Positions 7,319 to 54,164 are shown, counted from the stretch's first letter. The stretch: DNA of 64,000 bases from Acidimicrobiales bacterium (GCA_020630195.1 JAHDBV010000004.1:6990-70989), one strand, 5' to 3'. Translations and numbers: made by a program. Notes: generated by a model from the letters alone, not told the origin.

Positions 7319-7330
7319 GCTCGAGCCGGC

Positions 7331-21134: not shown

Positions 21135-21380
21135 GTGGAGAGTCTTCCGCCTGCAGCAGGCCCGTCGTCAGGGTCGAAGGACCCGGATTCGACGCGCAGG
21201 GTGAGCTGACTCCGATCCGCGGTGGTCCCCTGCGGTCGGGGATGGGCCGGGTCCCGCTGAGGGCGAGCAGCCGGCCCCCGGCTCGACGATCCGAGCCGGT
21301 ACGCCAGCGCGCACGGTCGGATTCCCGATCCGGGTCCTTCGTCACTGTGCAGGCGCCTCGGTCCTCATCATCCTCCGGAC

Positions 21381-22112
21381 ATGACCATCCCTCCCACCAC
21401 CGATCCTGACCGTCCCGGCGAAGGCCCTCCCCTCGAGCTCTCGGCCAGCGGGGACGTGCCGGACGGAGCCGGGGACCACGTGGAGGAGGCGCTCGACCGG
21501 GCGCTGACACCGGTGGCTCGTCAGGTGCGATCCCGTGCGGCGAGACTCGTCGTCGACGAGCGGCATGGTCCGCCCCACCGATGCCGGTGCAGGGTCACCG
21601 TGCGGCTGCGGGGGCGCACGCTTCGAGCCGAAGCCGTGCACGAGCATCTCGACGGTGCGATCGACCTCGCGACGACGAGGATCCGACAGCAGGTCGAGCA
21701 TCTGCGGCGATCGCCGCGGGAGCGGGCGCCGTTGCCCCCTCCTCCCCGGCGTCCGTCCCTACGTCCGCTCGACGGAGGCGAGCTCGTCCGTCGGAAGTCG
21801 TTCACGACCCGGCTCACCGATCTGGAAGAGGCGCGTTTCGACGCCGATCTCCTCGGCCACGACTTCTTCTTGTTCACCGATGCGACGACGCGCGAGACCC
21901 GCCTGCTCGACCGGACCGCCGAGGACGAGGTGGTGCACGAGCTGGCCGATGCTCCGCGGATCGGGCTCGAGGAAGCCCGGTTCCGCCTGCGTGAGGCGGC
22001 GGTGCCGTTCGTGTTCTTCAAGACCGACGAGTTCCCGACCGGAGCGGTGGTCTACGCCCGTCTCGACGGCAACGACGGGTTGCTGGAGCCCCGGGGCCTG
22101 GAGCCGAGATGA
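21381..22112 (+). CDS. HPF/RaiA-family ribosome-associated protein with duplicated S30AE C-terminal-like domain
   Basis: The N-terminal half resembles the HPF core. The C-terminal half contains RRKSF...LEEARFDADLLGHDFFLFTD... and a second copy, IGLEEARFRLREAAVPFVFFKTDE...VVYARLDGNDGLLEP. The stop overlaps the next gene's ATG (ATGA at 22109-22112). Confidence 0.7.
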   Translation: MTIPPTTDPDRPGEGPPLELSASGDVPDGAGDHVEEALDRALTPVARQVRSRAARLVVDERHGPPHRCRCRVTVRLRGRTLRAEAVHEHLDGAIDLATTRIRQQVEHLRRSPRERAPLPPPPRRPSLRPLDGGELVRRKSFTTRLTDLEEARFDADLLGHDFFLFTDATTRETRLLDRTAEDEVVHELADAPRIGLEEARFRLREAAVPFVFFKTDEFPTGAVVYARLDGNDGLLEPRGLEPR

Positions 22113-30203: not shown

Positions 30204-31103
30204 TCACCGGGTGGCCGCGGCGCGGTGAGCAAGCCGTTCGTCGATCGAGGTGAGGATCTCCGCTGTCGACCGTCGGATCGTCCGCTCGCCGTCGCCGAAC
30301 CACACTTCGATGGGCGGGAGCCTCGGGTCGTCGGTTCGGCCAGCCGGCTCCGGCGGCCGATCGGGACGTAGGTCGGACACCACGACGTCGGCGTCGTCGC
30401 GCAGCGCGCAGCTCTCGCCACGGCGAATCGGACAGTGCTCCCCTGATCCGGCCATGGCGGTGCAGATGGCCCACTCCACCTCCCGTTCCTCGAGTTGGGC
30501 TTCGGCGAACCAGCGGGTCCGTTCCGACTCGATCAGCACCCGCGGCCGGCCGCTCGTCGACCAGACGGGAACGTCACCCGTCGTCGGCATCGTGAGCTGC
30601 ACACATCCCCACTCGGGATGCCCGGTCACGGCGAAGCCTCGTCGCCGCGCGAGGCCGAGCATGGCTGCGTTGTTCGCCCGGACAACCGCGTCGACCCGGT
30701 CGACGCCCCGCGCCCGAGCGTGCGCGAACAGCCGGTCGAGCAGTTCGTGGCCGAGCCCACCCCGGACCCGTGATGAGAGTGCGATGCCGAGCTCGAGCCC
30801 GCCGGAACTCGTGGGCGCGAGTCCGGCATCGCCCACGATCTCCGCACCGTTGCCGGTCAGTCGCTCGACGACGAGGAGGACACCTCCGTCGTCCTCGATC
30901 GTGAGCCAGCGGTCGTAGAACCCCGATCCGGGTGTCATCGGGCGGAAGAAGCGGAACTGGCGATCCCGGTCGGAGAGCTCCTCGTAGAGGCGCTCGAGTC
31001 CGGATCGGTCGTCTTGGACGGCGTGGCGGACCCGCAGCATCGAGCCGTCGGCGCGCGCGAGCTCGGGGCCGCACTGCTCACACCGGGTGTCGTCAGTCTC
31101 CAT
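30204..31103 (-). CDS. GNAT-family N-acetyltransferase with C-terminal extension
   Basis: The acetyl-CoA binding region is LSSRVRGGLGHELLDRLFAHARARG...ANNAAMLGLARRRGF. The start overlaps the upstream USP stop by 11 nt. Confidence 0.7.
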   Translation of the reverse strand: METDDTRCEQCGPELARADGSMLRVRHAVQDDRSGLERLYEELSDRDRQFRFFRPMTPGSGFYDRWLTIEDDGGVLLVVERLTGNGAEIVGDAGLAPTSSGGLELGIALSSRVRGGLGHELLDRLFAHARARGVDRVDAVVRANNAAMLGLARRRGFAVTGHPEWGCVQLTMPTTGDVPVWSTSGRPRVLIESERTRWFAEAQLEEREVEWAICTAMAGSGEHCPIRRGESCALRDDADVVVSDLRPDRPPEPAGRTDDPRLPPIEVWFGDGERTIRRSTAEILTSIDERLAHRAAATR

Positions 31104-31536
31104 GGATGATCAGCACGTTCGTCCGCGCGTGGTTGCTGACCTTCGACGAGACGCTGCCCCGGAGAAATCGGGTCGTCGCCCCGACACCCCGGCTCCCCAC
31201 ACAGATGAGATCGGCGTGCGTCGTCTCCGCCACGTCGAGAATCGCCGACGCGGGGTCGTCGGAGACCAGGTGGGTTTCACAGCGCAGGCCGAGCCGCTCG
31301 CATGCCCGGGCCGCGTCCCGGAGGGCCGTCTGGGGAGCGGCCACCGGATCGATGGTCGACTTGAACTCGTCGGGGACCGACGCCAGCAACGTGGCGACCT
31401 CGCGGGCGGACGGTGGGTCGAACGCGGTCACGACGTGCACCGTGGCCGCGGCTGGAACGATCCGGGCCACGGCGTCGATCGCTGCCTCGGCATGGGGGGA
31501 GCCGTCGAACCCGACGACGATGTTGTTGAGTTCCAT
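31093..31536 (-). CDS. Universal stress protein (single USP domain)
   Basis: IVVGFDGSPHAEAA...ICVGSRGVGATTRFLRGSVSSKVSNHARTNVLIIH. The G-2x-G-9x-G(S/T) ATP motif is present. Confidence 0.9.
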   Translation of the reverse strand: MELNNIVVGFDGSPHAEAAIDAVARIVPAAATVHVVTAFDPPSAREVATLLASVPDEFKSTIDPVAAPQTALRDAARACERLGLRCETHLVSDDPASAILDVAETTHADLICVGSRGVGATTRFLRGSVSSKVSNHARTNVLIIHGD

Positions 31537-31598
31537 TGGATGTTCCTCTCGCAGTGCTGGTCGTTCTCGACGATGTGGCGGAGGTCCGTTCCCCGCCA

Positions 31599-31612
31599 GG
31601 GCCCTAGGGCCC
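31599..31612. promoter_or_regulatory. Perfect 14-bp palindrome GGGCCCTAGGGCCC (DosR-box-like) in the divergent USP/pckG promoter region
   Basis: Exact palindrome, flanked by the inverted repeat GGAGGTCC (31580-87) / GGACCTCC (31632-39). It lies 63-76 nt from the USP ATG and 68-81 nt from the pckG ATG. Confidence 0.45.
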
Positions 31613-31679
31613 GATCGCGAGAGGACGGTCGGGACCTCCGCCTCTGCCCGGGTGTCGGAGGGTTCGTGATCGTTCGGAC

Positions 31680-36298: not shown

Positions 36299-36388
36299 CG
36301 GTGCCATCCGGGCTCGGGCCGAAGGACCCTACGTCCCTGTTGCTCCCTCGTTCATGCTGACGGGGGACGAACAGAGACGAGGACATCC

Positions 36389-37381
36389 ATGGCCACGATC
36401 GCCGTGTTCAGCACGCGCCCCCACGACGAGCTGTTCCTCCGGGGTGCCGATCCCGACGAACGCCACGAGCTGCGCTTCTTCGAGACGGCCCTGCAACCCG
36501 ACACCGCGGTGCTGGCCGTCGGGGCCGACGTCGTGGTCCCCTTCGTCAACGACGACCTGTCGAGCGAGACCATCGACCGTCTGGCGGACGCCGGGGTGCG
36601 GGGTGTGGCCCTGCGCTGTGCCGGGTTCAACCACGTCGATCTCGAGCGGGCCCGCGAGCGTGGGCTCGTCGTGGCCCGGGTTCCCGAGTACTCCCCGTAC
36701 GCCGTGGCGGAGCACTGTGTCGGACTGATCCTGTCGCTGAACCGTCGGATCCACCGGGCCCACGCCCGTGTCCGTGATGCGAACTTCACGCTCGGTGGCT
36801 TGCTCGGCTTCGACCTGCACGGCACCACCGTGGGCGTGGTCGGCACGGGGCGGATCGGGACCTGCTTCGCTCGGATCATGCGGGGTTTCGGATGCTCGGT
36901 GCTGGCCCACGACCCGGTGGAGTCCGATGAGTGCCGCTCGCTCGGCGTCGACTACGTCGCGCTCGACGAGTTGTTCCGCCGCGCCGACATCGTGGCGTTG
37001 CACTGTCCCCTGACCCCGGCGACCCACCATCTCGTCGACGCCGCGGCCATCGCGACGATGAAGCCCGGCGTGATGCTGATCAACACGAGCCGTGGGGGGC
37101 TCGTCGACACCGCGGCCGTCATCGACGGACTGAAGAGTGGTCGGCTCGGCCACGTTGGTCTCGACGTCTACGAGGAAGAGGCGGGCGTCTTCTTCGAGGA
37201 TCTCTCCGACCGGGTCGTCGCCGACGACGACCTCATGCGACTGCTCACCTTTCCCAACGTGCTCATCACGAGCCATCAGGCCTTCTTCACCCGGGAGGCG
37301 CTGACCGCCATCGCCCAGACCACCATGGAGAATGCCGATGCGATCGCCGAGGGTCGGCCCCCCGTCGCCCCGGTGGAGTGA
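36389..37381 (+). CDS. ldhA: D-lactate dehydrogenase (fermentative 2-hydroxyacid dehydrogenase)
   Basis: [10 protein letters not shown]...FNHVDL...[12 protein letters not shown]...[10 protein letters not shown]...INTSRG..VD...DVYE.E...TSHQAFFT matches LdhA-type D-LDH over the full length. Confidence 0.85.
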
Positions 37382-37405
37382 TCGGCCGGAACGAACCCCG
37401 ACGCC

Positions 37406-38491
37406 ATGACCCGACGCTCGCCCATCACGACCCGAACGGCGCACCGGACGCTCCGCATGGTGTCCGAGGCCGCCGCGCTCGAGGCGTTGGCCCGAGCCGG
37501 CGCCTCACGGACGGACGGTTCGGTCGACCGGGAGATCGTCCGGTTCGGGCCGGTCGAAGCCCGTCGTGACGGCGCGCAGGTGCATCTCACGGTCACGGCC
37601 TCCGATCGCGGTACGGCCGAGGTGCGGCTCGAGGAGGTCGCGGAGCGGTTGCTGCCCGACGTGATCCGGACGGATCCCGAACGTCCGGTCGCCCCGGGGG
37701 CCGAGTTGCTCCCCGACCTGCGATCGGCATCGGTCGCCGAGGATCTGCGGCGCATCGTCCGATGCCTCGACCTGACGACGCTGCGCGGCGACGACACCCG
37801 GGGTCGCGTGCGCCGCCTCTGCGCGCGGGCCGTCCGTCCGGACGGCACCGACGCCTCGGTCGGGCCCGTGGCGGCGGTCTGTGTCTACCCGAGGCTCGTG
37901 CCGGTGGCGGTCCACGCCACGGCCGGCACGCCGGTTGCCGTCGCGAGCGTCGCCGGATCGTTCCCGACCGGATTGTCGGACCTCGACACCCGTCTGAGGG
38001 ACATCAGCGCCGCGGTCGGCGCCGGTGCGAGCGAGATCGACGTCGTCCTCGATCGGTCGGCGTTCCTCGATGGCCGGGACGACGAGGTGTCGGCCGGTCT
38101 CCTCGCGGCGAGGGAGGTCTCGGCGGGCACGACCCTCAAGGTGATTCTGGAGACGGCCGAGCTCGGCTCGCCGGCGGCGATCGCGGCGGCGGCGGAGCTG
38201 GCCATCGGTTCTGGCGCCGACTTCATCAAGACGTCCACCGGGGCCGTTGGCGGCGCGACGCCGCTGGCCGTGCGGACCATGGCGGAGGTGATCCGGGCGG
38301 AGTCGGAGCGGTCGGGTCGGGTGATCGGCCTGAAGGTGTCCGGTGGTGTGCGAACGGCCGACGAGGCCCTCGGCCACCTCGAGATCATCCGATCGGTGCT
38401 CGGACCTGCGTGGCTCCGTGCCGATCGGCTCCGGTTCGGAGCGTCGTCGTTGCTCGACGATCTACTCGTGGCACTCGACTCGACCGAGTGA
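37406..38491 (+). CDS. deoC: Deoxyribose-phosphate aldolase with ~100-aa N-terminal extension
   Basis: DeoC blocks are CLDLTTL, AAVCVYP, FPTG, EIDVV, LKVILET, FIKTSTG (Schiff-base Lys) and GLKVSGGVRT. Confidence 0.8.
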   Translation: MTRRSPITTRTAHRTLRMVSEAAALEALARAGASRTDGSVDREIVRFGPVEARRDGAQVHLTVTASDRGTAEVRLEEVAERLLPDVIRTDPERPVAPGAELLPDLRSASVAEDLRRIVRCLDLTTLRGDDTRGRVRRLCARAVRPDGTDASVGPVAAVCVYPRLVPVAVHATAGTPVAVASVAGSFPTGLSDLDTRLRDISAAVGAGASEIDVVLDRSAFLDGRDDEVSAGLLAAREVSAGTTLKVILETAELGSPAAIAAAAELAIGSGADFIKTSTGAVGGATPLAVRTMAEVIRAESERSGRVIGLKVSGGVRTADEALGHLEIIRSVLGPAWLRADRLRFGASSLLDDLLVALDSTE

Positions 38492-38535
38492 TCTCGCGCA
38501 GCACGACCGGCCATCGGCGCCCGTGACAGACTGCG

Positions 38536-39192
38536 GTGATGGCCGACCTCATCCGTGTCCTCCTGCTCGATGATCACGAGATCGTTCGGCGCGGGGTGAA
38601 GGATCTGCTCGAGGCGGAGGATGATCTCACCGTCGTGGCCGACACCGGCACCGGGGCCGAGGCGATCCGAATCTGTGGTCACACCGACATCGATGTGGCC
38701 GTGCTCGACGTTCGGCTCGAAGAGAGCAACGGCATCGCGGTGTGCCGTGAGATCCGGGCAGCGCATCCGGAGATCGCCTGTCTCATCCTGACGTCGTACG
38801 CGGATGACCAGGCCCTCATCGACGCCTCCGTGGCCGGCGCTGCCGGGTACGTGCTGAAGCAGATCCGGTCCGATGACCTGGTCGAGGCCATCCGGAAGGT
38901 CGCGGCTGGGGCGACGCTGCTCGATGCGGCCCAGGTGCGCCTCGGCATGGAACGACTCCGCGGCACCGACGAGGGCCGGGTCGACCAGCTCACCTCCCAG
39001 GAGCGCCGGATCTTCGACCTCATCGGTGAAGGACGATCGAACCGCCAGATCGCCGACGAGCTCTACCTCGCCGAGAAGACCGTGAAGAACTACGTCTCGA
39101 ACATGCTGGCGAAGCTCGGGATGGACCGACGCACCGAGGCGGCCGCATTCGCGGCCCGCCTCGAGGAGCGCCAGCGGCTCCGGTACGACTGA
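38536..39192 (+). CDS. NarL/LuxR-family response regulator, DosR/DevR-like
   Basis: By recollection of the sequence, it is collinear and highly similar to M. tuberculosis DevR. Shared blocks: LLDDHEIVRRG, DVAVLDVRL..NGI..CR, CLILTSY.D, GA.GYV.K, LT.QER, QIAD.L.LAEKTVKNYVS..LAKLGM.RRT.AA.FA. Confidence 0.9.
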   Translation: MMADLIRVLLLDDHEIVRRGVKDLLEAEDDLTVVADTGTGAEAIRICGHTDIDVAVLDVRLEESNGIAVCREIRAAHPEIACLILTSYADDQALIDASVAGAAGYVLKQIRSDDLVEAIRKVAAGATLLDAAQVRLGMERLRGTDEGRVDQLTSQERRIFDLIGEGRSNRQIADELYLAEKTVKNYVSNMLAKLGMDRRTEAAAFAARLEERQRLRYD

Positions 39193-41795: not shown

Positions 41796-42995
41796 TCAGC
41801 CGACGTCTCGGCTGGTCAACGCTCGGATCCGAAGCCGCAGCCAGGTCCAGCGATCGCTCGCGATCCACGGCGAGGGGTCGTGGGTCCAGGCCCGGCGCAT
41901 CACGGCCGGATCGGCGATCGGCTCGAGGGTGCCGTGGGCGACGACGCTCCACCCACGACGACGATCGGGGTCGAACTCGTCGACCTCGAGACACACCGGG
42001 ACACCGAGCCCGGCGAGTGTCGCCTTCGTCCCGGGGAGGCTCCGGATGACGAGGTCCCGGTCGACGACGGCGAACTGCACCGGGACGATCGTCGGACGAC
42101 CGTCGACCACGTAGGCGAGCCGGCCGAGGTCGGCGGCCGCGAGGCGGTCGAGACTGGTGCGTTCGTCGGTGCCGTCGTGCCTGTCGTCTGGCTCGTCGTG
42201 GGTTGGCGTTTCTCCGCCCGTGCAGAGGAGCGCGGTGTCGGAGCCCAGCGCCCGTTCGCCCAGCGGTCCGTCGACGAGTGGTCCACTCGGCACCACCATG
42301 GCCATCGCGCCTCGGCCGCCCCACATCTCGATGGCGTGGAGGTCGGTGCTCACGTGCTCCTCGATCACCACACGCACGCCGAGTTGTCGGAGGTTCCTCG
42401 CGACGGTGCGGCCCCGATCGTCGTCGGTGCCGTCATCGGCGTCGAGGGCGACCCGGATCGGCACGTCGAGCGCCAATGCCCACACCGCGGCGACCGGGGC
42501 GGTCAGTTCCGCCACGTCGTCGGCGTCGTGGAGCGACAACGGGAGCACCAGCGGGCCCGGGACCCAGCGTCGGGAGCCGGGCGGAACGAGCAGCGTCGTG
42601 TAGGGGGAGTCCCGTTCGGCCGCCAGGCCCTCGTCGTCGAGGGTGTCGACGACGAGAACCGGTCGCTCGATCTGGTCCTCCAGTCCGGTGATGTGCGACA
42701 TCCTGGGGGGTGCGGTCGGCACGCCCCGAGCCTGGGTGGTGGTCGCGGCCACCTCGAGTCCGGCGGGGTCCGATGCGACGACCTGGAGCGTGGTCCCGGT
42801 CCAGTTGACGAGCACCGCTGCCGCGGCGACCCGTGTCTCGAGCGTCTGGTCGTCGGTCTGCTCACCGGGACGGACTGCGACGACGACCGTTCGGAAGGGG
42901 GTGAACTGGTCGATCCGGGCGCCGAGCTCCGGACCATCGCCCCGGGGGCGGAAGGCCGGAGAGTGGTTGGGCTGAGGTGAAGAGGTCGTGGGCAT
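41796..42995 (-). CDS. Fusion protein: two degenerate USP-like domains plus a C-terminal pyridoxamine-5'-phosphate-oxidase-like (PPOX/split-barrel) domain
   Basis: The N-terminal ~270 aa have USP-like strand patterns (VVVAVRPG...; VLVVDT...LLVPPG; LVLPLS...) but lack the ATP-loop glycines. The C-terminal ~125 aa are LAYVVDGRPTIVPVQFAVVDRDLVIRS..G.K......VCLEVDEFD....GWSVVAHG (Pyridox_ox_2-like). Confidence 0.7.
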   Translation of the reverse strand: MPTTSSPQPNHSPAFRPRGDGPELGARIDQFTPFRTVVVAVRPGEQTDDQTLETRVAAAAVLVNWTGTTLQVVASDPAGLEVAATTTQARGVPTAPPRMSHITGLEDQIERPVLVVDTLDDEGLAAERDSPYTTLLVPPGSRRWVPGPLVLPLSLHDADDVAELTAPVAAVWALALDVPIRVALDADDGTDDDRGRTVARNLRQLGVRVVIEEHVSTDLHAIEMWGGRGAMAMVVPSGPLVDGPLGERALGSDTALLCTGGETPTHDEPDDRHDGTDERTSLDRLAAADLGRLAYVVDGRPTIVPVQFAVVDRDLVIRSLPGTKATLAGLGVPVCLEVDEFDPDRRRGWSVVAHGTLEPIADPAVMRRAWTHDPSPWIASDRWTWLRLRIRALTSRDVG

Positions 42996-43105
42996 GTGAG
43001 GGCTCCGGGTCGGGCGGACAGGGGCTACTCAAGGGGCGGTCCGGGTCCGGTGGCCAGGGACCTCCGACCCTGTTCGCGGATCGCCATCGGCGCTGGGCTG
43101 GTGAC

Positions 43106-43531: not shown

Positions 43532-44226
43532 TGACCGTCCCGGGTGAGGTCGTGGCGGCGGTCGAGGATCCTCGTCGACCCGGTCCGGTCGCGGCGGTGG
43601 CGGAGTCGGTCGCTGCGCTGCTCGGTGTTCCGGCCCGGATCCTCCACACCGATGACGACGACGTCGTCAGCCGGGTTCTCGAGGAAGTGCGATCGACCTC
43701 CATGCTGGTGTTGGGGTCGCGTCATGCGAATCGGTGGAGTGGGAAGCACTCCGTGGCCGAACAGTGTCTCGACGGCCATGACGGCCCGACCATGGTGGTC
43801 GGTCCGAGGTCCGCCGGTGCTCTCGGCGAGGGTGACGTGCTCGTGCCGCTCGACGGGTCGTCCGCTGCCCTCGCAGCGGTGCCGTTCGCCCGTGAGCTCG
43901 CCACTCGGCTCGCTCGGGGTGTCTCCACCGTCCGGGTCGTTCCTCCGGATGGGGGCTCTGGAAGGACCTCACCCGAGCCCGTCGAGCCGCACCCGGGCCC
44001 ACTCGACCTCCGCGTCGAGATCGTGGTCTCCGACGACGTGATCGACGGCCTCGCCGAGGTGGTCGCCGAAGCTGATCCAGCATGTGTCGTGATGTCGTCG
44101 CGAGGGGATCGCTCGCATCGCCGATCGACGATCTCGCGAGTCTGTACGGGGCTCATCGCCGCGTCGACCCGGCCGGTCGTCGTCGTCCCCGAGTCGGGTG
44201 GCGAGCCGGTTCAGCGCAACGGCTGA
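43531..44226 (+). CDS. USP-like protein, two degenerate domains
   Basis: The start overlaps the upstream stop (GTGATGA). It has USP-like repeats (...MLVLGSRH...PTMVV; VLVPLDGSSAALAAVPFA...CVVMSSRG...RPVVVV) without a complete ATP motif. Confidence 0.65.
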   Translation: MTVPGEVVAAVEDPRRPGPVAAVAESVAALLGVPARILHTDDDDVVSRVLEEVRSTSMLVLGSRHANRWSGKHSVAEQCLDGHDGPTMVVGPRSAGALGEGDVLVPLDGSSAALAAVPFARELATRLARGVSTVRVVPPDGGSGRTSPEPVEPHPGPLDLRVEIVVSDDVIDGLAEVVAEADPACVVMSSRGDRSHRRSTISRVCTGLIAASTRPVVVVPESGGEPVQRNG

Positions 44227-45245
44227 CTCCACTCGATCCGCGTTCCGCCACCCTGACCGGGACCGATGTGGAAGCTCCCGTCGGCGTCTTCCGCTCGGCT
44301 GGCGAGGTTCCGGAGTCCGTTGCCCGACCCGTCGGTGCGTCCGCTCGTGTCGATGCCCCCCGGGCCGATGCCGTTGTCGGTCACGATCACCTCGACCCGG
44401 TCATCGTCGGCGCGGACCTCGACCTGGGCGGCTGATGCGCTTGCGTGACGGGCCACGTTCGTGAGGGCCTCACCGACGACCGCGGCGAGTTCCTGGGCGA
44501 CGTGTCGTGCCCGGGCGTCGATCCGATGGTCGATGCGCAGCGTCGGCGTGAACCCGAGGGCGGCGGCGGCCCCCACCACGGTGCGAAGCACGAGTTCACT
44601 CGGCGTCTGGTTCGAGGAGTCACCGCCGTGCAGCTCGAAGATCGTCCGCCGGAGCGACGAGATGGCGGTGTCGATGTCGTCGACGGACATCGAGAGCCGA
44701 TCCCGGATGACCGGGTCGACGATCCGAGGCAGAAGCGCCTGGAGGCTCATGCCGGTGGCGAAGAGCTGCTGGATCACCGAGTCGTGCAGGTCGCGGGCGA
44801 TCCGCTCACGGTCGTGCATGAGTTGGAGCAGTTCCTGCGCGCTCTGCAGTTGGAGGTCACCGTGGCGGCGGGCCACGGCGTATCGCACGGCCCGGTCGAC
44901 CGTCTCGACGTCGACGGCCTGCTTCGTGAGGTAGTCCTGAGCGCCGCGCTCCACCGCGGCCTGGGCGGTGCGGGGATCGTCGAGGCCGGTGAGCACCACC
45001 ACGGGGACGTCGGGAGCGACCTCGCCGAGTTTCGCGATCGACGCCAGACCGGAGGCATCGGGGAGTGACAGATCGAGCAGGATCGCGGCGAAGTCGCCGG
45101 GCAGCGCGGCGCAGGCCGACTCGAGATCGGTGACGTGCTCGACGTCGTAGTCGGTGTCGGCCCGCTCGAGCATCCGTCGCATGGTGCGGGCGTCGAGCGG
45201 GTTGTCTTCGACGAGCAGCACCCGGTGGACGTCGGCGGTACTCAC
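44211..45245 (-). CDS. Hybrid REC - HisKA_3 - HATPase histidine kinase (receiver domain as the only input domain)
   Basis: The N-terminal REC is VLLVEDNPLD...ILLDLSLPD...VVVLTG...DYLTK. The HisKA_3 H-box is RERIARDLHDSVIQQL. HATPase motifs are EALTNVARHA, DNGIG and GNGLRNL. The GTG start overlaps the upstream stop (GTGA). Confidence 0.9.
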   Translation of the reverse strand: MSTADVHRVLLVEDNPLDARTMRRMLERADTDYDVEHVTDLESACAALPGDFAAILLDLSLPDASGLASIAKLGEVAPDVPVVVLTGLDDPRTAQAAVERGAQDYLTKQAVDVETVDRAVRYAVARRHGDLQLQSAQELLQLMHDRERIARDLHDSVIQQLFATGMSLQALLPRIVDPVIRDRLSMSVDDIDTAISSLRRTIFELHGGDSSNQTPSELVLRTVVGAAAALGFTPTLRIDHRIDARARHVAQELAAVVGEALTNVARHASASAAQVEVRADDDRVEVIVTDNGIGPGGIDTSGRTDGSGNGLRNLASRAEDADGSFHIGPGQGGGTRIEWSQPLR

Positions 45246-45673
45246 CGGTCGGTGGCGTCGCCGGGGACCGTGGCGATCGAGAACCAGAAGCCATCGATGG
45301 CCTGGACGACGTCGACCCAGCCCGCGAGGCCCACGGGCTTGGTCACGTAGGCGTTGGCGCCGAGGCCGTAGGCGGCTTCGACGTCGCTGGTCGAAGCCGA
45401 GCTCGTGAGCACCACCACCGGGATCGACCTGAGGTCGTCATCGCTGCGCATCGCGTCGAGCACGGCCCGCCCGTCGAGCCCGGGCAGGTTGAGGTCGAGC
45501 AGCACCAGCTCGGGGCGGGGGCGTTCGGCCAGTCGCTCGAGCGCGGCCTCGCCGGAGGTGACGTGCTCGATCTCGTTGGCGAGCTGGATCTTCGCTGCGG
45601 CGTTGATCGTCGACCGGGCGTCGAGGAGGTTGTCCTCGACGAGCAGGACGCGGATGGATCGGGAGTCAGGCAT
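45242..45673 (-). CDS. Single-domain (CheY/Rcp1-like) response regulator
   Basis: ATG at 45673. VLLVEDNLLDAR...LVLLDLNLPGLDG...PVVVLTSS...NAYVTKP. There is no output domain. It overlaps the upstream kinase stop by 8 nt. Confidence 0.9.
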   Translation of the reverse strand: MPDSRSIRVLLVEDNLLDARSTINAAAKIQLANEIEHVTSGEAALERLAERPRPELVLLDLNLPGLDGRAVLDAMRSDDDLRSIPVVVLTSSASTSDVEAAYGLGANAYVTKPVGLAGWVDVVQAIDGFWFSIATVPGDATDR

Positions 45674-47273
45674 CGTGGGTCTCGATGATCGGGAGGGTGA
45701 AGATGAACGTGGCGCCATCGCCGGGTTCGGAATGCACCGAGATGGTTCCGCCGTGCCGCTCGACGATCCGCTGGCACAGCGCGAGCCCGATCCCGACGCC
45801 GTCGTAGCCGGCATGGGCCCGCTTGAAGAGCTCGAAGACCCGCTCGTGGTGGGCGGCATCGATCCCGACGCCGTTGTCGGCCACGGCGATCCGCCAGGTG
45901 CCATCGGCCTCGTCGCCGGCGATGGAGATCACCGGCGGCCGATCATCGGCCCGGTATTTGATCGCGTTCTCGACGAGGTTCTGGAGGAGCTGCTCGAGCA
46001 TGGTCGCGTGTCCACGCACGGTCGGGAGGGCCCCGAGTTCGATCCGTCCGCCGAGGTCGTCGAGCGTCGGGCGGACGCGGGCCACGACGAGATCGGCGAG
46101 GGCGTCGAGGTCGACCGGAGTCCCGTCCTCGATCTGGGGCCCCTGGACACGTGAGTAGGACAGCAGCGCCTGGATGAGACGTTCCATCCGCCCGACCGCG
46201 TCCGACGTGAGCTGCTTCAGCTCGAGCGCCTCGTCGTCGAAGCCCGTGCCGATGGTGTTCGTGAGGTGCTCGTCGAGCAGGTCCATTCCCTGGCGGACGT
46301 TGCGGAGCGGCGTCTGGAGATCGTGGGAGGCGATGTAGGCGAACTGCTCGAGATCGCGGTTCGAGCGGGCGAGATCGGCCATCGACCGGCGCAGCTCGGC
46401 GGTGCGTTCGGCGACGCGGGACTCGAGTACGTCGTTGGCCTCGGTGAGTCGGCGTTCAGCCTCGACCCGTTCGGTCAGGTCGTGGAGCACACCCGTGAAA
46501 ACCCGGCCGTTCGGGGTGACGACCTCGCTGACCGCGAGCGCGACGGGGAACGTCGTGCCATCGGCCCGCAGCGCCGTGACGTCCCGGCCGATGCCGATGA
46601 TGTGCGGTTCACCCGAGGTGAGATAACGCTCGAGATAGCCGGCGTGCTCGGAGCGGAACGGCTCCGGCATGAGTTTGGTGACGTTCCGGCCGACCAGCTC
46701 GCTCGCAGGCCATCCGAACAGCTCCTCGGTGGCGTCGTTCACCTCGAGCACGAGTCCGGTCTCGTCGATGAGAACGATCGGGTCGACAGCGGTCCGGAGC
46801 ACGGCCCGGAGCAGGTCCTCCGATCGGGTGGCGCCCCGGATCCGCTCGCGTTCCCGGGTGACGTCCCGGGCGAGGAGAACGACCCGGTCACCGTCCGGGA
46901 TGAGGGTCCACCACCCGAATCGGCCGGCCTCGGTCGTGAAGAGCCGCCGGGGTTCGGTGTCGGCCGCGGCCGCCTGGACCAGTTCGGTGAACGTCCGCTC
47001 GTCGGGCTCGCCGTCGTCGCCGAGCACGGTCGGCTCGAGCACGTTGCCGACCGCGAGCCCCCAGGACGCGCCGACGGCGTTCGTCGCGAGGATCCGTCCC
47101 CCGGTGTCGACCACGACCACCGGATCCGGCCCGGCGGTCGTCCACGGGGGGAGGTCGATGTCGATGTTGTTCTCCCCCGGCATCCGCCCATGGTCGACCA
47201 TCGGGACCCGTGTGGCAACCATCCGCGACGACGTGGCCGCGACGGTCTTTGGGCCCTGTTCGAGCGTTGCCAT
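45666..47273 (-). CDS. PAS-PAS sensor histidine kinase; second PAS is FixL-type (heme/O2-sensing-like)
   Basis: By recollection, the second PAS (LMPEPFRSEHAGYLERYLTSGEPHIIGIGRDVTALRADGTTFPVALAVSE...VFTGVLHDLTE) is near-collinear with the Bradyrhizobium FixL heme domain. The match includes the proximal His (codon 46644-46646). HisKA H-box ASHDLQTPLRNV, HATPase N/G boxes (NLVENAIKY, DNGVGI, GIGLALC). The start is uncertain (ATGs at 47273, 47222, 47201, 47183). Confidence 0.85.
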   Translation of the reverse strand: MATLEQGPKTVAATSSRMVATRVPMVDHGRMPGENNIDIDLPPWTTAGPDPVVVVDTGGRILATNAVGASWGLAVGNVLEPTVLGDDGEPDERTFTELVQAAAADTEPRRLFTTEAGRFGWWTLIPDGDRVVLLARDVTRERERIRGATRSEDLLRAVLRTAVDPIVLIDETGLVLEVNDATEELFGWPASELVGRNVTKLMPEPFRSEHAGYLERYLTSGEPHIIGIGRDVTALRADGTTFPVALAVSEVVTPNGRVFTGVLHDLTERVEAERRLTEANDVLESRVAERTAELRRSMADLARSNRDLEQFAYIASHDLQTPLRNVRQGMDLLDEHLTNTIGTGFDDEALELKQLTSDAVGRMERLIQALLSYSRVQGPQIEDGTPVDLDALADLVVARVRPTLDDLGGRIELGALPTVRGHATMLEQLLQNLVENAIKYRADDRPPVISIAGDEADGTWRIAVADNGVGIDAAHHERVFELFKRAHAGYDGVGIGLALCQRIVERHGGTISVHSEPGDGATFIFTLPIIETHDA

Positions 47274-47316
47274 CGGTGGGACAACGGAGTGAGACACCAG
47301 CGTTCCTGGAGGAATC

Positions 47317-48888
47317 ATGTCCGTGCTCGAGACAGCCACCGTCGACGAACCCGTCGCCGTTCGTCATCCGTCGCCACCGGTTCAACCCGCCTCGTCGGGC
47401 TTCGTGCTGGCGATCGTGTTGGGCCTGGGGGCGATCTTCATGCTCGGCCTGGTGGCGATCGCCGGCATCGGTCTCGCCACGGCCGACGGTGCGCCACCGA
47501 CGCCATCGACGACGATCGACGTGTCGCTGAGTGAGTTCCGGATCGATGGTGCACTCGTGGCGCCGGCCGGAGAGGTGACCCTGCGGATCACGAACGCGGG
47601 CTCGATGTCGCACAACGTGGCGGTCACCGAGCTCGACGTCGTCAGCCAGAACGTCGGCCCGGGTGGGGTGACCGAGCTGGCGCTCGGCGAGCTCGCGCCC
47701 GGCGCGTACGAGCTGTTCTGCGACATCGCCGGCCATCGCGAGTCCGGCATGGTCACCACGCTGACGATCACGGGCGACGGGTCTGAACTCGCCGCCGACG
47801 GACACGCCGGCCATGGCCACGGTGCCGACACCGACTGGCAGGCGATGGACGAGGCGATGATGGCGACGATGCTCGCCTTCCCGGCTGAGACCGAGGGCAC
47901 CGGCAATCCGGTGCTCGAACCGACCGAGATCCTCGCCGACGGCACCAAGGTCTTCGATCTGACCGCCGAGATCGTCGACTGGGAGGTCGAGCCGGGCAAG
48001 TTCGTGGAGGCCTGGACGTACAACGGCGTCGTGCCGGCCCCCCAGATCCTGCTGGATCGGGGCGACACCGTCGACATCCGCATCCACAACGAGCTCCCGA
48101 TGAGCACCGACGTCCACTGGCACGGGGTACACACCCCGAACGACATGGACGGCGTGGCGCCCTACACCCAGGAGATGATCACGCCGGGTGAGACCTTCAC
48201 CTACTCGTTCACCGCCCACCACGATGCGATCGGGATGTATCACGCCCACCACCACGGGCAGATGCAGGTCGTGAACGGCATGTTCGGTGCCATCCGGATC
48301 GGGGAGAACCCCGTTCCCTACGGCGGCACCTTCAGCGGCGTGTACATCCCGGAGGACCTCGAGCTCGCCGCCGACATCCCGATGGTGCTCAACGACGCCG
48401 GCACGATCGGTCTGAGCCTCAACGGCAAGAGCTTCCCGGCGACCGAACCTCTCGTGCTCGAGCAGGGCGACTGGGCGTCGGTCACGTACTACAACGAAGG
48501 GCTCCAGATCCATCCGATGCACCTGCATCAGTTCCCGCAGCTGGTCTACGCGAAGGACGGCGTGCCGCTCGACCATCCGTATTGGGTCGACACACTGAAC
48601 GTGGCACCCGGCGAGCGGTACACCGTGCTGTTCCGGGCCGACGATGCGGGCACCTGGGTCTGGCACTGCCACATCCTGAACCACGTCGAGCGTGACACCG
48701 GGATGTTCGGCATGGTCACGGCGATCGTCGTCACACCGAACCCCGGGTTCGATCCCGAGGAGAATCCGGTGGCGCCGAGCAACTGGCGCAATGTCGGCAC
48801 CAGCGCCGACGGCCCGGTGACGGCCGACGTCGATCGCGATCACGGAGCGGGCGACGGCGCACACACCCACAGCGCCGACGGCGCCTGA
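47317..48888 (+). CDS. Membrane-anchored multicopper oxidase with N-terminal cupredoxin (type-1 Cu) domain
   Basis: TM anchor FVLAIVLGLGAIFMLGLVAIAGI. The cupredoxin has H/C/H/M ligands (SMSHNV...FCDIAGHRESGM). The MCO copper motifs are HWHG, MYHAHHHG, HPMHLH and WHCHILNHVERDTGM. Confidence 0.85.
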   Translation: MSVLETATVDEPVAVRHPSPPVQPASSGFVLAIVLGLGAIFMLGLVAIAGIGLATADGAPPTPSTTIDVSLSEFRIDGALVAPAGEVTLRITNAGSMSHNVAVTELDVVSQNVGPGGVTELALGELAPGAYELFCDIAGHRESGMVTTLTITGDGSELAADGHAGHGHGADTDWQAMDEAMMATMLAFPAETEGTGNPVLEPTEILADGTKVFDLTAEIVDWEVEPGKFVEAWTYNGVVPAPQILLDRGDTVDIRIHNELPMSTDVHWHGVHTPNDMDGVAPYTQEMITPGETFTYSFTAHHDAIGMYHAHHHGQMQVVNGMFGAIRIGENPVPYGGTFSGVYIPEDLELAADIPMVLNDAGTIGLSLNGKSFPATEPLVLEQGDWASVTYYNEGLQIHPMHLHQFPQLVYAKDGVPLDHPYWVDTLNVAPGERYTVLFRADDAGTWVWHCHILNHVERDTGMFGMVTAIVVTPNPGFDPEENPVAPSNWRNVGTSADGPVTADVDRDHGAGDGAHTHSADGA

Positions 48889-54034: not shown

Positions 54035-54070
54035 GGACGTGAGATTGGACGGCGTCTGTTCTCGCGAACA

Positions 54071-54084
54071 GGGCCTGAAGTCCC
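54071..54084. promoter_or_regulatory. DosR-box-like element GGGCCTGAAGTCCC upstream of the tandem USP gene
   Basis: It matches 12 of 14 positions of the core of the M. tuberculosis DosR consensus (GGGACTWWAGTCCC). It lies 37-50 nt upstream of the ATG at 54034 on the minus strand. Confidence 0.4.
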
Positions 54085-54164
54085 GGAGGTCGTCGGCACC
54101 CCATCCGGGTCCGTTGGCTCCGCGAGCTCGCGGGGGACTCGCCGAGGGATCGGTGGTGTCGGGT

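What the first reader, a model, noticed from the sequence alone, without database searches (positions are those of the whole stretch)
46470..46817. Second PAS domain of the kinase conserves the FixL heme pocket, including the proximal histidine
The segment is DPIVLIDETGLVLEVNDATEELFGWPASELVGRNVTKLMPEPFRSEHAGYLERYLTSGEPHIIGIGRDVTALRADGTTFPVALAVSEVVTPNGRVFTGVLHDLTE. It can be laid residue by residue on the Bradyrhizobium japonicum FixL heme-PAS domain, which I recall as ...NILMPEPDRSRHDSYISRYRTTSDPHIIGIGRIVTGKRRDGTTFPMHLSIGEM...YFTGFVRDLTE.

The conserved positions include the heme-ligating His (here codon 46644-46646) and the Arg in the GIGR block that contacts bound O2. FixL-type O2 sensors are classically proteobacterial and paired with FixJ. 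A FixL-type heme PAS in a high-GC actinobacterial context, next to a DosR-like output, would merge two textbook hypoxia pathways.
Basis: partly seen in the sequence, partly recalled or inferred. Interest (0 to 1): 0.65.

Follow-up and report, generated by a model that had tools for sequence, protein, structure and literature searches.

The report
FixL-type haem sensor kinase near DosR
A sensor kinase in this high-GC, Acidimicrobiia-like genome carries an oxygen-sensor domain whose haem pocket matches rhizobial FixL, and its conserved gene cluster suggests that it controls a DosR-type dormancy regulator through a second, receiver-controlled kinase.

Summary
The peptide is encoded on the minus strand of 46470-46817. 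It aligns without gaps to the Bradyrhizobium FixL haem domain (47% identity over 127 aa, E 4e-32). A confident structure model superposes on FixL haem domains at 1.5-1.6 A. The proximal His (codon 46644-46646), the O2-contacting Arg (46584-46586), both propionate anchors and the distal hydrophobic residues are conserved. They are invariant or nearly so in more than 100 relatives, mostly from Acidimicrobiales. It is the second of two PAS folds, as in FixL.

The whole protein is not a FixL orthologue. Its transmitter is phytochrome-like and there is no FixJ. It overlaps, in one operon, an Rcp1-type single receiver and a sensor-less REC-HisKA_3 kinase. The catalytic domain of that kinase resembles DosT/DevS most closely among solved structures.

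A true DosR homologue (51% identity, identical DNA-contact motif) lies 5 kb from the end of the operon (about 6.5 kb from the kinase gene), not adjacent. This association recurs in 12 of 16 related loci. DosR-box-like palindromes precede USP, ribosome-hibernation and dosR-like genes.

The most likely mechanism is an O2-inhibited haem kinase that feeds the Rec-HK and then DosR. This wiring is inferred and untested. FixL-signature PAS modules are widespread in metagenomes, so the novelty is the wiring: a new variant of a known kind.

The parts
45666..47222 (-). FixL-like sensor histidine kinase gene (PAS-A, haem PAS-B, coiled-coil linker, HisKA, HATPase). The stop codon is at 45666-45668. The start is uncertain: ATG at 47222, 47201 or 47183. 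The longest ORF starts with GTG at 47339, but that would overlap the divergent gene starting at 47317.
   Evidence: ORF list; Pfam domains; start-codon candidates; family alignment.
46863..47144 (-). PAS-A, the first PAS fold (residues about 66-159 of the 557-aa numbering). It is divergent, has no cofactor signature and its ligand is unknown.
   Evidence: AlphaFold model with strands and helices typical of PAS, pLDDT 80-93. Foldseek superposes both domains on BjFixL PAS-A/PAS-B 8js5.
46440..46820 (-). PAS-B, the FixL-type haem-PAS domain (residues 174-300).
   Evidence: Ungapped alignment to BjFixL 1dp6, E 4.2e-32, 47% identity. Rmsd 1.5-1.6 A to BjFixL haem domains. Pfam PAS E 6e-23.
46644..46646 (-). 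Codon of His232, equivalent to BjFixL His200, the proximal haem ligand.
   Evidence: invariant in the 35-sequence family alignment.
46584..46586 (-). Codon of Arg252, equivalent to BjFixL Arg220, which hydrogen-bonds bound O2 in FixL.
   Evidence: invariant in the family alignment.
46350..46475 (-). Helical linker from the DLTE motif of PAS-B to the phospho-acceptor region. The distance from Asp287 to His339 is 52 residues.
   Evidence: The length is 52 in 33 of 34 relatives and 45 (one heptad shorter) in one. The model ends in a long helix.
46143..46352 (-). HisKA dimerisation/phosphotransfer domain. The H-box is FAYIASHDLQTPLRNV, with His339 at codon 46323-46325, of the phytochrome-kinase type.
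   Evidence: Pfam HisKA. The best PDB matches of the kinase core are 8f71 and bacteriophytochrome kinases.
45687..46007 (-). HATPase_c catalytic domain of the FixL-like kinase.
   Evidence: Pfam E 3.2e-27.
45242..45673 (-). Single-domain receiver (143 aa) of the Rcp1/RcpA phytochrome-response-regulator type. Its ATG overlaps the kinase stop codon (ATGCCTGA). The phospho-acceptor Asp lies in LLDLNLPG. It contains no cysteine.
   Evidence: Pfam Response_reg. PDB hits: 5te9 at 1.7e-29, RcpA, Rcp1 and BphP-RR fusions. Gene junction.
44211..45245 (-). Receiver-controlled histidine kinase (REC-HisKA_3-HATPase, 344 aa) with no sensor domain. Its GTG overlaps the stop of the preceding gene (GTGA). Among solved structures, its catalytic domain is closest to DosT/DevS.
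   Evidence: Pfam. PDB: DosT 3zxq at 7.6e-13, DevS 3zxo at 5.1e-12, LvrB 8vc9 for the REC part. Gene junction.
38536..39192 (+). DosR/DevR-like response regulator (REC + GerE/LuxR HTH). It is probably the third gene of the operon 36389-39192.
   Evidence: PDB 3c3w DevR at E 1e-60. 51% identity and identical AEKTVKNY motif. Pfam.
36313..36340 (.). Two overlapping DosR-box-like palindromes (17.0 and 13.6 bits). They lie upstream of the 2-hydroxyacid dehydrogenase / DeoC-aldolase / dosR-like operon.
   Evidence: Scan with a PWM learned from related loci; gene map.
43054..43073 (.). DosR-box-like palindrome CCAGGGACCTCCGACCCTGT (16.2 bits). It lies between the divergent USP-PNPOx gene (start 42995, -) and a USP gene (start about 43106, +).
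31596..31615 (.). DosR-box-like palindrome (18.1 bits). It lies between a USP gene (31093-31536, -) and the PEPCK gene (31680, +).
21168..21187 (.). DosR-box-like palindrome (14.6 bits). It lies upstream of the long HPF/S30AE ribosome-hibernation gene (21381-22112, +).
54068..54087 (.). DosR-box-like palindrome (12.2 bits). It lies 34-67 bp upstream of the likely ATG (54034 or 54001) of a tandem-USP gene on the minus strand.
47240..47259 (.). Weak, imperfect DosR-box-like site (9.3 bits; one good half-site). It lies in the divergent promoter region between the FixL-like operon and the multicopper oxidase gene.
   Evidence: Suggestive only.

Best explanation
The gene encodes a cytoplasmic haem-based O2 sensor kinase. 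PAS-B most likely binds haem b through His232. Arg238 and His246 would hold the propionates, Ile247/Leu268/Val270 would form the distal pocket, and Arg252 would be positioned to hydrogen-bond bound O2.

By analogy with FixL, O2 binding shifts the FG loop. The change passes down a roughly 50-residue coiled-coil linker and switches off autophosphorylation at His339. The deoxy form is therefore the active kinase.

The phosphoryl group then goes to two related receivers encoded in the same overlapping operon. One is an Rcp1-type single-domain receiver, which may act as a sink, modulator or shuttle. The other is the receiver of a sensor-less REC-HisKA_3 kinase. Phosphorylation of that receiver activates its DosS/DosT-like kinase core, following the LvrB paradigm.

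The activated kinase phosphorylates the DosR-like regulator. DosR then binds GGGNC-N4-GNCCC palindromes and induces USP genes, a ribosome-hibernation factor, its own operon and probably other hypoxia genes.

Shown here: the sequence and fold identity of the pocket, the operon structure, the family assignments, the synteny and the motif positions. Inferred: haem binding, the direction of O2 regulation and every phosphotransfer step.
For: Haem pocket:
- Ungapped alignment to BjFixL, E 4e-32, 47% identity.
- All ligand and pocket residues are conserved and invariant or nearly so across 35 relatives.
- The model (pLDDT 89.6) superposes on BjFixL haem domains at 1.5-1.6 A and ranks them above EcDosP.
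- The tandem PAS-A/PAS-B layout matches 8js5.
- A heptad-sized indel in the linker fits a coiled-coil signalling helix.

Operon:
- The stop and start codons of the three genes overlap (ATGCCTGA, GTGA).

Partners:
- The small receiver is of the phytochrome-RR type, matching the phytochrome-type transmitter.
- The second kinase is REC-HisKA_3-HATPase with no sensor. Its catalytic domain is closest to DosT/DevS among solved structures.
- Rec-HKs are activated by receiver phosphorylation from an upstream kinase (PMC13269768).
- Both receivers share a conserved LLVEDNxLDAR beta1-alpha1 signature across loci. The DosR-like receiver has a different one (FLLDDHEIVRRG).

Link to DosR:
- The DosR homologue matches DevR at E 1e-60.
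- It is the only HisKA_3-class partner pair in the window.
- In 16 Acidimicrobiia loci the FixL-like gene is followed by the Rec-HK in 13.
- A DosR-like gene (62-67% identity) lies within about 6 kb in 12 of them, and directly abuts the Rec-HK in L003, L007 and L009.

Regulon:
- A PWM learned from the relatives (cTAGGGACCWWGGTCCCTAg, essentially the mycobacterial DosR box as I recall it) gives 6 window sites of at least 12 bits. Mononucleotide shuffles give about 1.
- All six are promoter-proximal to USP, HPF/S30AE and dosR-operon genes.
- Similar boxes sit in front of DosR-like and FixL-like genes in the relatives.
Against: - No experiment: haem binding, ligand specificity and the sign of regulation are extrapolated from FixL.
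- The transmitter differs from FixL's. The linker is 52 residues, against 36 in BjFixL by my recollection of His291, so the coupling could be inverted.
- In this window the DosR-like gene is 5 kb from the operon, with five or six genes in between.
- Some relatives lack the Rec-HK (L002, L011, L013) or lack a DosR-like gene within 10 kb (L001, L008).
- Some relatives have an additional PAS-GAF-HisKA_3 kinase that could serve DosR directly (L004). A similar kinase could lie outside this 64-kb window.
- The boxes next to FixL-like genes fit equally well with the operon being merely a DosR target.
- The total count of relaxed palindromes in the window is not above chance (7 found, 8 expected). Only their positions and flanking bases are non-random. 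The PWM core positions were imposed by the pattern used to select the sites.
Confidence: 0.55

Rival explanations
1. The kinase and the Rcp1-type receiver form a self-contained two-component system, like Cph1-Rcp1, whose output is protein-protein signalling unrelated to DosR. The cluster is co-located with dosR only because the operon is itself a member of the DosR regulon. In that case the Rec-HK would receive input from another kinase.
For: The transmitter and the small receiver both belong to the phytochrome-associated pair type. DosR-box-like sites lie directly upstream of FixL-like genes in L001, L007, L008 and L012, and a weak site lies in the window promoter. Some loci have the FixL-like gene plus the small receiver without a Rec-HK (L011, L013).
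Against: The Rec-HK gene overlaps the receiver gene in the same operon. It follows the FixL-like gene in 13 of 16 loci, in several of them directly and with no small receiver (L001, L003, L004, L006, L016). It has no sensor domain of its own. Its receiver shares the alpha1 signature of the small receiver.
Confidence: 0.2
2. The haem-PAS domain binds haem but reports something other than O2 tension: NO, CO or the redox state of the iron (as debated for DosS versus DosT). Alternatively, O2 activates the kinase rather than inhibiting it.
For: FixL haem domains also bind CO, NO and CN (PDB entries 1lsv, 1dp8 and 1lt0, listed). The transmitter and the linker length differ from FixL, so the sign of coupling cannot be transferred with certainty.
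Against: Arg220, which gives FixL its O2-specific response according to the established FixL literature, and the whole distal triad are conserved and invariant in the family. The downstream gene set (USPs, HPF, WS/DGAT, DosR) is typical of a hypoxia response.
Confidence: 0.15
3. The FixL-like kinase phosphorylates the DosR-like regulator directly, as FixL phosphorylates the LuxR-type FixJ. The Rec-HK and the small receiver would be accessory modulators or phosphate sinks.
For: Classical FixL, a HisKA-type kinase, pairs with a LuxR/GerE-type regulator. In L002 the order is FixL-like, small receiver, DosR-like, with no Rec-HK nearby.
Against: The beta1-alpha1 region of the DosR-like receiver differs from that of the two operon-encoded receivers. 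DosR-type regulators are served by HisKA_3 kinases, and the Rec-HK has exactly that core, closest to DosT/DevS. L001 and L002 lie on the same chromosome, so the Rec-HK is present in that genome.
Confidence: 0.07
4. PAS-B does not bind haem. The similarity would be residual ancestry, and the domain would bind another ligand or none.
For: There is no direct evidence of the cofactor. PAS domains change ligands readily.
Against: 47% identity with every haem-contacting residue retained, and purifying selection on exactly those residues across more than 30 diverged relatives. The predicted backbone is within 1.6 A of holo-FixL.
Confidence: 0.03

Closest known systems
FixL of Bradyrhizobium japonicum / Sinorhizobium meliloti (haem-PAS O2 sensor kinase of the FixLJ system)
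   Same: The tandem PAS-A/PAS-B layout is the same, and the haem-PAS sequence is 47% identical. The proximal His, Arg206, His214, Ile215, Arg220 and Leu236 are identical. The fold superposes at 1.5-1.6 A. The PAS domain is followed by a helical linker to a HisKA kinase.
   Different: The transmitter is phytochrome-type (H-box SHDLQTPLR) rather than FixL-type. The NCBIfam FixL equivalog scores 173 against a cut-off of 850 and matches only the PAS part. No FixJ or FixK was found among the genes annotated in the window. The partners are a single-domain receiver and a Rec-HK. The host is Acidimicrobiia-like rather than a proteobacterium.
DosS/DosT-DosR (DevS/DevR) hypoxia system of Mycobacterium tuberculosis
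   Same: The response regulator is a close DosR homologue (E 1e-60, 51% identity, identical DNA-contact motif). The HisKA_3 kinase has a catalytic domain closest to DosT/DevS. DosR-box-like palindromes precede genes for USPs, an S30AE/HPF protein and the dosR operon. A CBS protein and a WS/DGAT are encoded nearby.
   Different: The HisKA_3 kinase has a receiver domain where DosS/DosT have their two GAF domains, one of which binds haem. The haem sensor is a separate FixL-type PAS kinase. The dosR gene is not adjacent to its presumed kinase in this window.
[quoted passage not shown]
   Same: A sensor kinase sits upstream of a REC-DHp-CA kinase with no sensor of its own. Receiver phosphorylation is the activating input (PMC13269768). 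LvrB appears among the PDB matches of the window's Rec-HK. NCBIfam gives weak LvrA/LvrB hits.
   Different: The DHp family (HisKA_3), the upstream signal (haem/O2) and the output (a DosR-type transcription factor rather than an anti-sigma factor) all differ. Similarity to LvrB is low and mostly confined to the receiver.
Cph1-Rcp1 and bacteriophytochrome kinase / response-regulator pairs
   Same: The kinase core (E 2e-30 to bacteriophytochrome kinases) and the adjacent single-domain receiver (RcpA 4.7e-24, Rcp1 1.5e-22) both belong to this pair type.
   Different: There is no PAS-GAF-PHY photosensory module or bilin-binding site. The sensor is a haem PAS domain.
EcDosP (EcDOS) haem-PAS
   Same: It is a haem-binding PAS fold with the proximal His at the same position.
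   Different: It is only about 25% identical and ranks below FixL. It lacks the IIGIGR loop, and its output is a c-di-GMP phosphodiesterase.

Membership tests
FixL-type haem-PAS domain | Proximal haem ligand His (BjFixL His200) on the F helix | tested here: met
   His232 aligns with His200 in an ungapped alignment. It is invariant in 35 relatives.
FixL-type haem-PAS domain | FG-loop/G-strand motif H-I-I-G-I-G-R, containing the O2-contacting Arg220 and the Ile215 gate | tested here: met
   HIIGIGR is identical (residues 246-252). I, G, G and R are invariant in the family.
FixL-type haem-PAS domain | Propionate anchors Arg206 and His214 (Arg in RmFixL, from memory) | tested here: met
   Arg238 and His246 are present in the window protein. 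In relatives the first is mostly Arg (a few have H/A/N/D/S) and the second is H/R/K/N.
FixL-type haem-PAS domain | Distal hydrophobic residues (Ile215, Leu236, Ile/Val238) | tested here: met
   Ile247, Leu268 and Val270.
FixL-type haem-PAS domain | PAS fold superposable on FixL haem domains, closer than to other haem-PAS proteins | tested here: met
   Foldseek: BjFixL haem domains at rmsd 1.5-1.6 A and TM 0.90-0.94. EcDosP haem domains score lower: rmsd 1.8-2.4 A, TM 0.82-0.88, only about 25% identity.
FixL-type haem-PAS domain | Actually binds haem b and O2 | not testable with these tools
   This needs expression and UV-vis spectroscopy.
FixL/FixJ two-component system (orthologue of rhizobial FixL) | Full-length match to the FixL equivalog model | tested here: not met
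   NF041777 scores 173 bits against a cut-off of 850, and only profile positions 113-251 (the PAS part) match.
FixL/FixJ two-component system (orthologue of rhizobial FixL) | Cognate FixJ regulator (and the FixK cascade) encoded with it | tested here: not met
   The neighbours are a REC-only protein and a REC-HisKA_3 kinase. The only LuxR-type regulator found scores 65 bits against the FixJ cut-off of 255 and is DosR-like.
FixL/FixJ two-component system (orthologue of rhizobial FixL) | Kinase inhibited by O2 | not testable with these tools
   This needs autophosphorylation assays in oxy and deoxy conditions.
DosR/DevR response regulators | Full-length similarity to DevR above other NarL-family regulators | tested here: met
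   3c3w gives 208 bits (E 1e-60); the next hit, VraR, gives 136 bits. Identity is 51% over 209 aa.
DosR/DevR response regulators | DNA-contacting Lys179/Lys182/Asn183 motif | tested here: met
   AEKTVKNYVS is identical to DevR. The residue numbering is from the literature as I recall it.
DosR/DevR response regulators | DosR-box palindromes upstream of hypoxia or dormancy genes | tested here: inconclusive
   Six sites of at least 12 bits, against about 1 in shuffles, all promoter-proximal to USP, HPF and dosR-operon genes. However, the strict box GGGACN4GTCCC and the relaxed pattern are not over-represented in total, and no binding data exist.
DosR/DevR response regulators | Partner kinase of the DosS/DosT type (GAF-GAF-HisKA_3-HATPase) | tested here: not met
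   The only HisKA_3 kinase in the window has a REC domain instead of GAF domains. Its catalytic domain nevertheless resembles DosT/DevS most closely.
Rec-controlled histidine kinases (LvrB type) | REC-DHp-CA architecture with no other sensor, with the phospho-acceptor Asp and His present | tested here: met
   Pfam: REC 9-110, HisKA_3 146-207, HATPase 251-343. LLDLSLPD and DLHD motifs are present in the translation.
Rec-controlled histidine kinases (LvrB type) | Kinase activated by receiver phosphorylation from an upstream kinase | not testable with these tools
   Inferred from the LvrB paradigm (PMC13269768) and from the operon structure.

The most novel reading that the evidence does not exclude
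Acidimicrobiia (and perhaps other non-mycobacterial Actinomycetota) run their DosR dormancy/hypoxia regulon from a FixL-type haem-PAS oxygen sensor instead of the GAF-haem sensors DosS/DosT. The signal would pass through a three-tier phosphorelay: haem-PAS kinase, then a receiver-controlled DosS/T-like kinase (plus an Rcp1-like receiver), then DosR. If so, the sensing module of a conserved stress regulon has been exchanged between the two textbook haem-sensor classes, and the two-kinase step adds a point for signal integration.
Probability: 0.45. Interest if true: 0.7.

Novelty: new variant of a known kind. Interest (0 to 1): 0.55.

Why it matters
FixL and DosS/DosT are the two textbook haem-based O2 sensor kinases. 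They use unrelated folds (PAS and GAF) and have each been studied in one lineage. This cluster suggests that a whole actinobacterial class couples a FixL-type sensor to a DosR-type output through a sensor-less kinase whose catalytic core resembles DosS/DosT.

If that is confirmed, it would show that the sensing module of the dormancy regulon can be exchanged. It would give Rec-controlled kinases a physiologically defined input. It would also offer a way to study how abundant but poorly cultured Acidimicrobiia cope with oxygen fluctuations in sediments, sludge and waters.

Every step can be tested with purified proteins. The finding also has a practical consequence for annotation: automatic labels such as 'FixL' (JGI KO) or 'sensor histidine kinase' (NCBI) hide the real architecture.

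Tried and rejected
- Plus-strand reading of the stated coordinates gives an unrelated peptide; the feature is on the minus strand.
- My first residue mapping was off by one. The correct relation is BjFixL number = ORF number minus 32.
- The strict mycobacterial DosR core GGGACN4GTCCC with at most 1 mismatch gave 5 hits against 12 expected. The relaxed pattern GGGNCN4GNCCC gave 7 against 8 expected. There is no overall enrichment; only the positions and flanks are informative.
- My GC3-based coding mask for the related loci was too conservative (47% 'non-coding'), so I do not use the intergenic/coding ratio as a statistic.
- A homologue search with the 127-aa domain alone returned only 10 hits because of the word index. 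The full-length query was needed.
- The exhaustive phmmer list is dominated by giant multi-PAS proteins, so its counts (4,196 at E up to 1e-30) are upper bounds.
- An exact-sequence look-up of the DosR-like protein found no record. The source organism is therefore not identified beyond 'Acidimicrobiia-like'.
- The NCBIfam best names MadS/MadR for the Rec-HK and the DosR-like protein are a generic enterococcal envelope-stress pair, far below cut-off. I rejected them as meaningless.
- A FixT-like role (Fe-S receiver) for the small receiver is unlikely because it has no cysteine. General inhibition of the kinase by a receiver remains possible.
- Literature searches for FixL + DosR + Actinobacteria, FixL + haem + PAS + Actinobacteria, DosR + Acidimicrobi*, and FixL + Acidimicrobiia genera found no paper describing this arrangement. 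The library is incomplete, so this is absence of evidence only.
Full report
**1. Observation**

The coordinates 46470-46817 give an unrelated peptide on the plus strand. The segment lies in an intact ORF, 45666..47339(-), 557 aa at its longest. Pfam finds one PAS domain (residues 177-287, E 6e-23), HisKA (330-399) and HATPase_c (445-551).

A phmmer search of all PDB sequences aligns residues 174-300 without a single gap to the B. japonicum FixL haem domain (1dp6 and relatives, E 4.2e-32). It also hits S. meliloti FixL (1d06, 3.4e-26). E. coli DosP is far weaker (about 4e-9). Identity to BjFixL is 60/127 = 47%.

With the mapping BjFixL number = ORF number minus 32, the following residues are identical: His200, Tyr203, Arg206, Tyr207, His214, Ile215, Ile216, Gly217, Ile218, Gly219, Arg220 and Leu236. 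Ile238 is Val.

**2. Structure**

I aligned the sensor region (residues 53-305) with 34 relatives. AlphaFold2 gave a confident model (mean pLDDT 89.6) with two PAS folds joined by a long helix. Foldseek against the PDB ranks the recently solved BjFixL PAS-A/PAS-B dimers first (8js5/8js6, TM about 0.65-0.70 over about 255 columns). The isolated BjFixL haem domains come next (rmsd 1.5-1.6 A, target TM 0.90-0.94, 47-50% identity). All of these rank ahead of DosP, PpsR, LOV and other PAS proteins. The haem-PAS is therefore the second of two PAS domains, as in FixL.

**3. Conservation**

A full-length search of the 5.8-billion-protein collection found 4,985 proteins with E up to 1e-40. Over 100 of the 120 best listed are relatives at 48-64% identity over the shared region. 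They come in two architectures: about 400 aa (one PAS) and about 510 aa (two PAS). Most are unnamed. NCBI calls them 'sensor histidine kinase' from Acidimicrobiales MAGs, and JGI's automatic KO label is 'FixL' for some.

In the 35-sequence alignment the His, the Tyr207 equivalent, the I-G-x-G-R motif and the Leu236 equivalent are invariant. The Arg206 equivalent is mostly Arg, and the His214 equivalent is H/R/K/N. The distance from the DLTE motif to the phospho-acceptor His is 52 residues in 33 of 34 relatives and 45 in one. That is exactly one heptad shorter, as expected for a coiled-coil signalling helix.

**4. What the protein is not**

The NCBIfam FixL equivalog scores 173 bits against a cut-off of 850 and matches only the PAS part. 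The kinase core is most similar to PDB 8f71 (E 1e-39) and to bacteriophytochrome kinases (E about 2e-30). Its H-box is FAYIASHDLQTPLRNV. No FixJ is present.

An exhaustive phmmer scan of 1.84 billion cluster representatives shows that the FixL-signature PAS is a widespread mobile module. Of 30 close representatives, 29 carry one to four copies. These are fused to at least four transmitter types, including the phytochrome type in 7 of 30. The domain, and even its fusion to this transmitter, are therefore not unusual in sequence space.

**5. Operon and partners**

The kinase stop overlaps the ATG of a 143-aa single-domain receiver (ATGCCTGA). That gene's stop overlaps the GTG of a 344-aa REC-HisKA_3-HATPase protein (GTGA).

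The small receiver belongs to the phytochrome-associated family (5te9 at 1.7e-29, RcpA 4.7e-24, Rcp1 1.5e-22, BphP-RR fusions). This matches the transmitter type. It has no cysteine, so it is not an Fe-S FixT-type inhibitor.

The third protein has no sensor domain. Among all solved structures, its catalytic domain is most similar to M. tuberculosis DosT (3zxq, 7.6e-13) and DevS (3zxo, 5.1e-12). Proteins with this REC-DHp-CA layout are 'Rec-controlled histidine kinases'. For the prototype, LvrB, receiver phosphorylation by the upstream kinase LvrA releases the catalytic domains and activates the kinase (PMC13269768).

**6. The DosR connection**

The only LuxR-type regulator I found in the window, at 38536-39192(+), matches DevR/DosR (3c3w) at E 1e-60. 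That is 208 bits, against 136 for the next hit. It is 51% identical over 209 aa and has an identical AEKTVKNY recognition motif. It lies 5 kb from the end of the operon. A CBS-pair protein, a SulP-STAS transporter, a USP-PNPOx fusion and two USPs lie in between. No other HisKA_3 kinase is detectable in the 64 kb.

The genome scan gave 16 related loci, nearly all from Acidimicrobiales or Acidimicrobiia MAGs, at 49-63% identity. All 16 keep the FixL signature. The FixL-like gene is followed by the Rec-HK in 13 and by the small receiver in 8. A DosR-like gene of 62-67% identity lies within about 6 kb in 12. In L003, L007 and L009 it abuts the Rec-HK directly.

L001 and L002 are two loci of one 6.3-Mb chromosome. 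One has the FixL-like gene plus the Rec-HK; the other has the FixL-like gene, the small receiver and the DosR-like gene.

The small receiver and the Rec-HK receiver share a conserved beta1-alpha1 signature (LLVEDNxLDAR). The DosR-like receiver has a different one (FLLDDHEIVRRG). Because alpha1 carries much of the kinase-specificity code (established knowledge), this fits one kinase serving both receivers and a different kinase serving DosR.

**7. Regulon**

Neither the strict mycobacterial core nor a relaxed palindrome is over-represented in total. The relaxed sites in the relatives, however, sit just upstream of DosR-like genes (L002, L004, L006, L016) and next to FixL-like genes (L001, L007, L008, L012, L014, L015).

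A PWM built from those sites has the consensus cTAGGGACCWWGGTCCCTAg. The flanking A/T and central WW positions were not imposed by the selection pattern. The consensus is essentially the DosR box as I recall it from the literature.

In the window the PWM gives six sites of at least 12 bits; mononucleotide shuffles give about 1 (range 0-4). All six are promoter-proximal:
- upstream of a long HPF/S30AE ribosome-hibernation gene;
- between a USP gene and PEPCK;
- a double site before the 2-hydroxyacid dehydrogenase / aldolase / dosR-like operon;
- between divergent USP genes;
- before a tandem-USP gene.

These gene families, together with the nearby WS/DGAT and CBS genes, are typical members of the mycobacterial DosR regulon (my knowledge). 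A weak half-site lies in the promoter region of the FixL-like operon.

**8. Mechanism and rivals**

The best-supported model is as follows. A haem b on His232 binds O2, with Arg252 contacting it. O2 switches the kinase off and the deoxy kinase phosphorylates both receivers. The phosphorylated Rec-HK then activates the DosR homologue.

Shown here are the pocket, the fold, the operon, the family assignments, the synteny and the motif positions. Haem binding, the sign of regulation and each phosphotransfer are inferred.

The main rival is that the kinase and the Rcp1-type receiver form an independent system, and that the operon is merely a DosR target. Other rivals are a ligand other than O2, direct phosphorylation of DosR, and (unlikely) no haem at all.

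Caveats:
- Some relatives lack one component.
- L004 carries an extra PAS-GAF-HisKA_3 kinase that could feed DosR directly.
- Genes outside the window are unseen.

**9. Novelty**

Four literature searches found no description of a FixL-type sensor in Acidimicrobiia or one linked to DosR. The haem-PAS domain itself is a new member of a known, widespread kind. The conserved wiring to a sensor-less DosS/T-like kinase and to DosR is a new variant of known systems.

I score interest at 0.55. The domain result is solid but unsurprising given how widespread the module is. The pathway hypothesis is attractive and directly testable, but still inferential.

Noticed in passing
window 21168-21187, 31596-31615, 36313-36340, 43054-73, 54068-87: DosR-box-like palindromes (12-18 bits with a PWM learned from relatives), all promoter-proximal. 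They precede an HPF/S30AE hibernation factor, four or five USP genes and the operon containing the dosR-like gene. Together they outline a DosR-type hypoxia island spanning about 21-54 kb. The island also holds PFK, PEPCK, a D-2-hydroxyacid dehydrogenase, a CBS-pair protein, a USP-PNPOx fusion and a WS/DGAT.
   Followed up: partly
window 47317-48888 (+): A multicopper oxidase with an extra N-terminal cupredoxin domain is transcribed divergently from the FixL-like operon. It makes partial hits to the CopA, CueO and Cu-nitrite-reductase models, all far below cut-off. The two genes share a promoter region of about 100-130 bp, so a copper/O2-dependent enzyme may be co-regulated with the O2 sensor.
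   Followed up: no
L004:4594-7455 (+); similar hits in L006 about 4300-6515 and L016 about 6800-9025: Some relatives encode a PASx3-GAF-HisKA_3-HATPase kinase just upstream of the FixL-like gene. One of its PAS domains has His at the FixL proximal position but an R-x-M-G-E-G-L loop with no Arg220 equivalent. It may be a second, different haem or ligand sensor feeding the same DosR. No such gene is detectable in this window.
   Followed up: partly
P0178, P0186, P0188, P0195, P0201, P0210 and others: Many metagenomic kinases carry two to four tandem copies of the FixL-signature PAS (LMPEPY.SEHD.Y...Y..TG..KIIGIGRE). These are fused to classical HisKA, hybrid, HWE and phytochrome-type transmitters. 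Multi-haem-PAS arrays of this kind do not appear in the FixL literature I know.
   Followed up: partly
L001 and L002 (both on OZ244139.1, a 6.3-Mb Acidimicrobiales chromosome): One genome has two FixL-like paralogues at separate loci. One is paired with the Rec-HK; the other is paired with the small receiver plus the DosR-like gene. The components of the proposed cascade can therefore be split between loci.
   Followed up: no
L014:11206-12600 (+), same arrangement in L015 and probably L012: A DUF5671 protein is inserted between the FixL-like gene and the Rec-HK, and is preceded by a perfect GGGACCTTGGTCCC box.
   Followed up: no
window 41796-42995 (-): A 399-aa protein has a PNPOx-like (Pyridox_ox_2) C-terminal domain and a long N-terminal extension. 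A relative in L007 matches 85% of its length. It is divergent from a USP gene and shares a DosR-box-like site with it. NCBIfam gives no match.
   Followed up: no
window 12864-15046 (-): A separate, conventional HAMP-HisKA kinase and OmpR-type regulator pair. It is unrelated to the finding.
   Followed up: no
L013 (CAXMRH010000282.1): A contig labelled 'Chthoniobacterales' carries a kinase 57% identical to the window protein with the full FixL signature and the small receiver. Either the contig was mis-binned from an Acidimicrobiia genome or the gene was transferred horizontally.
   Followed up: no
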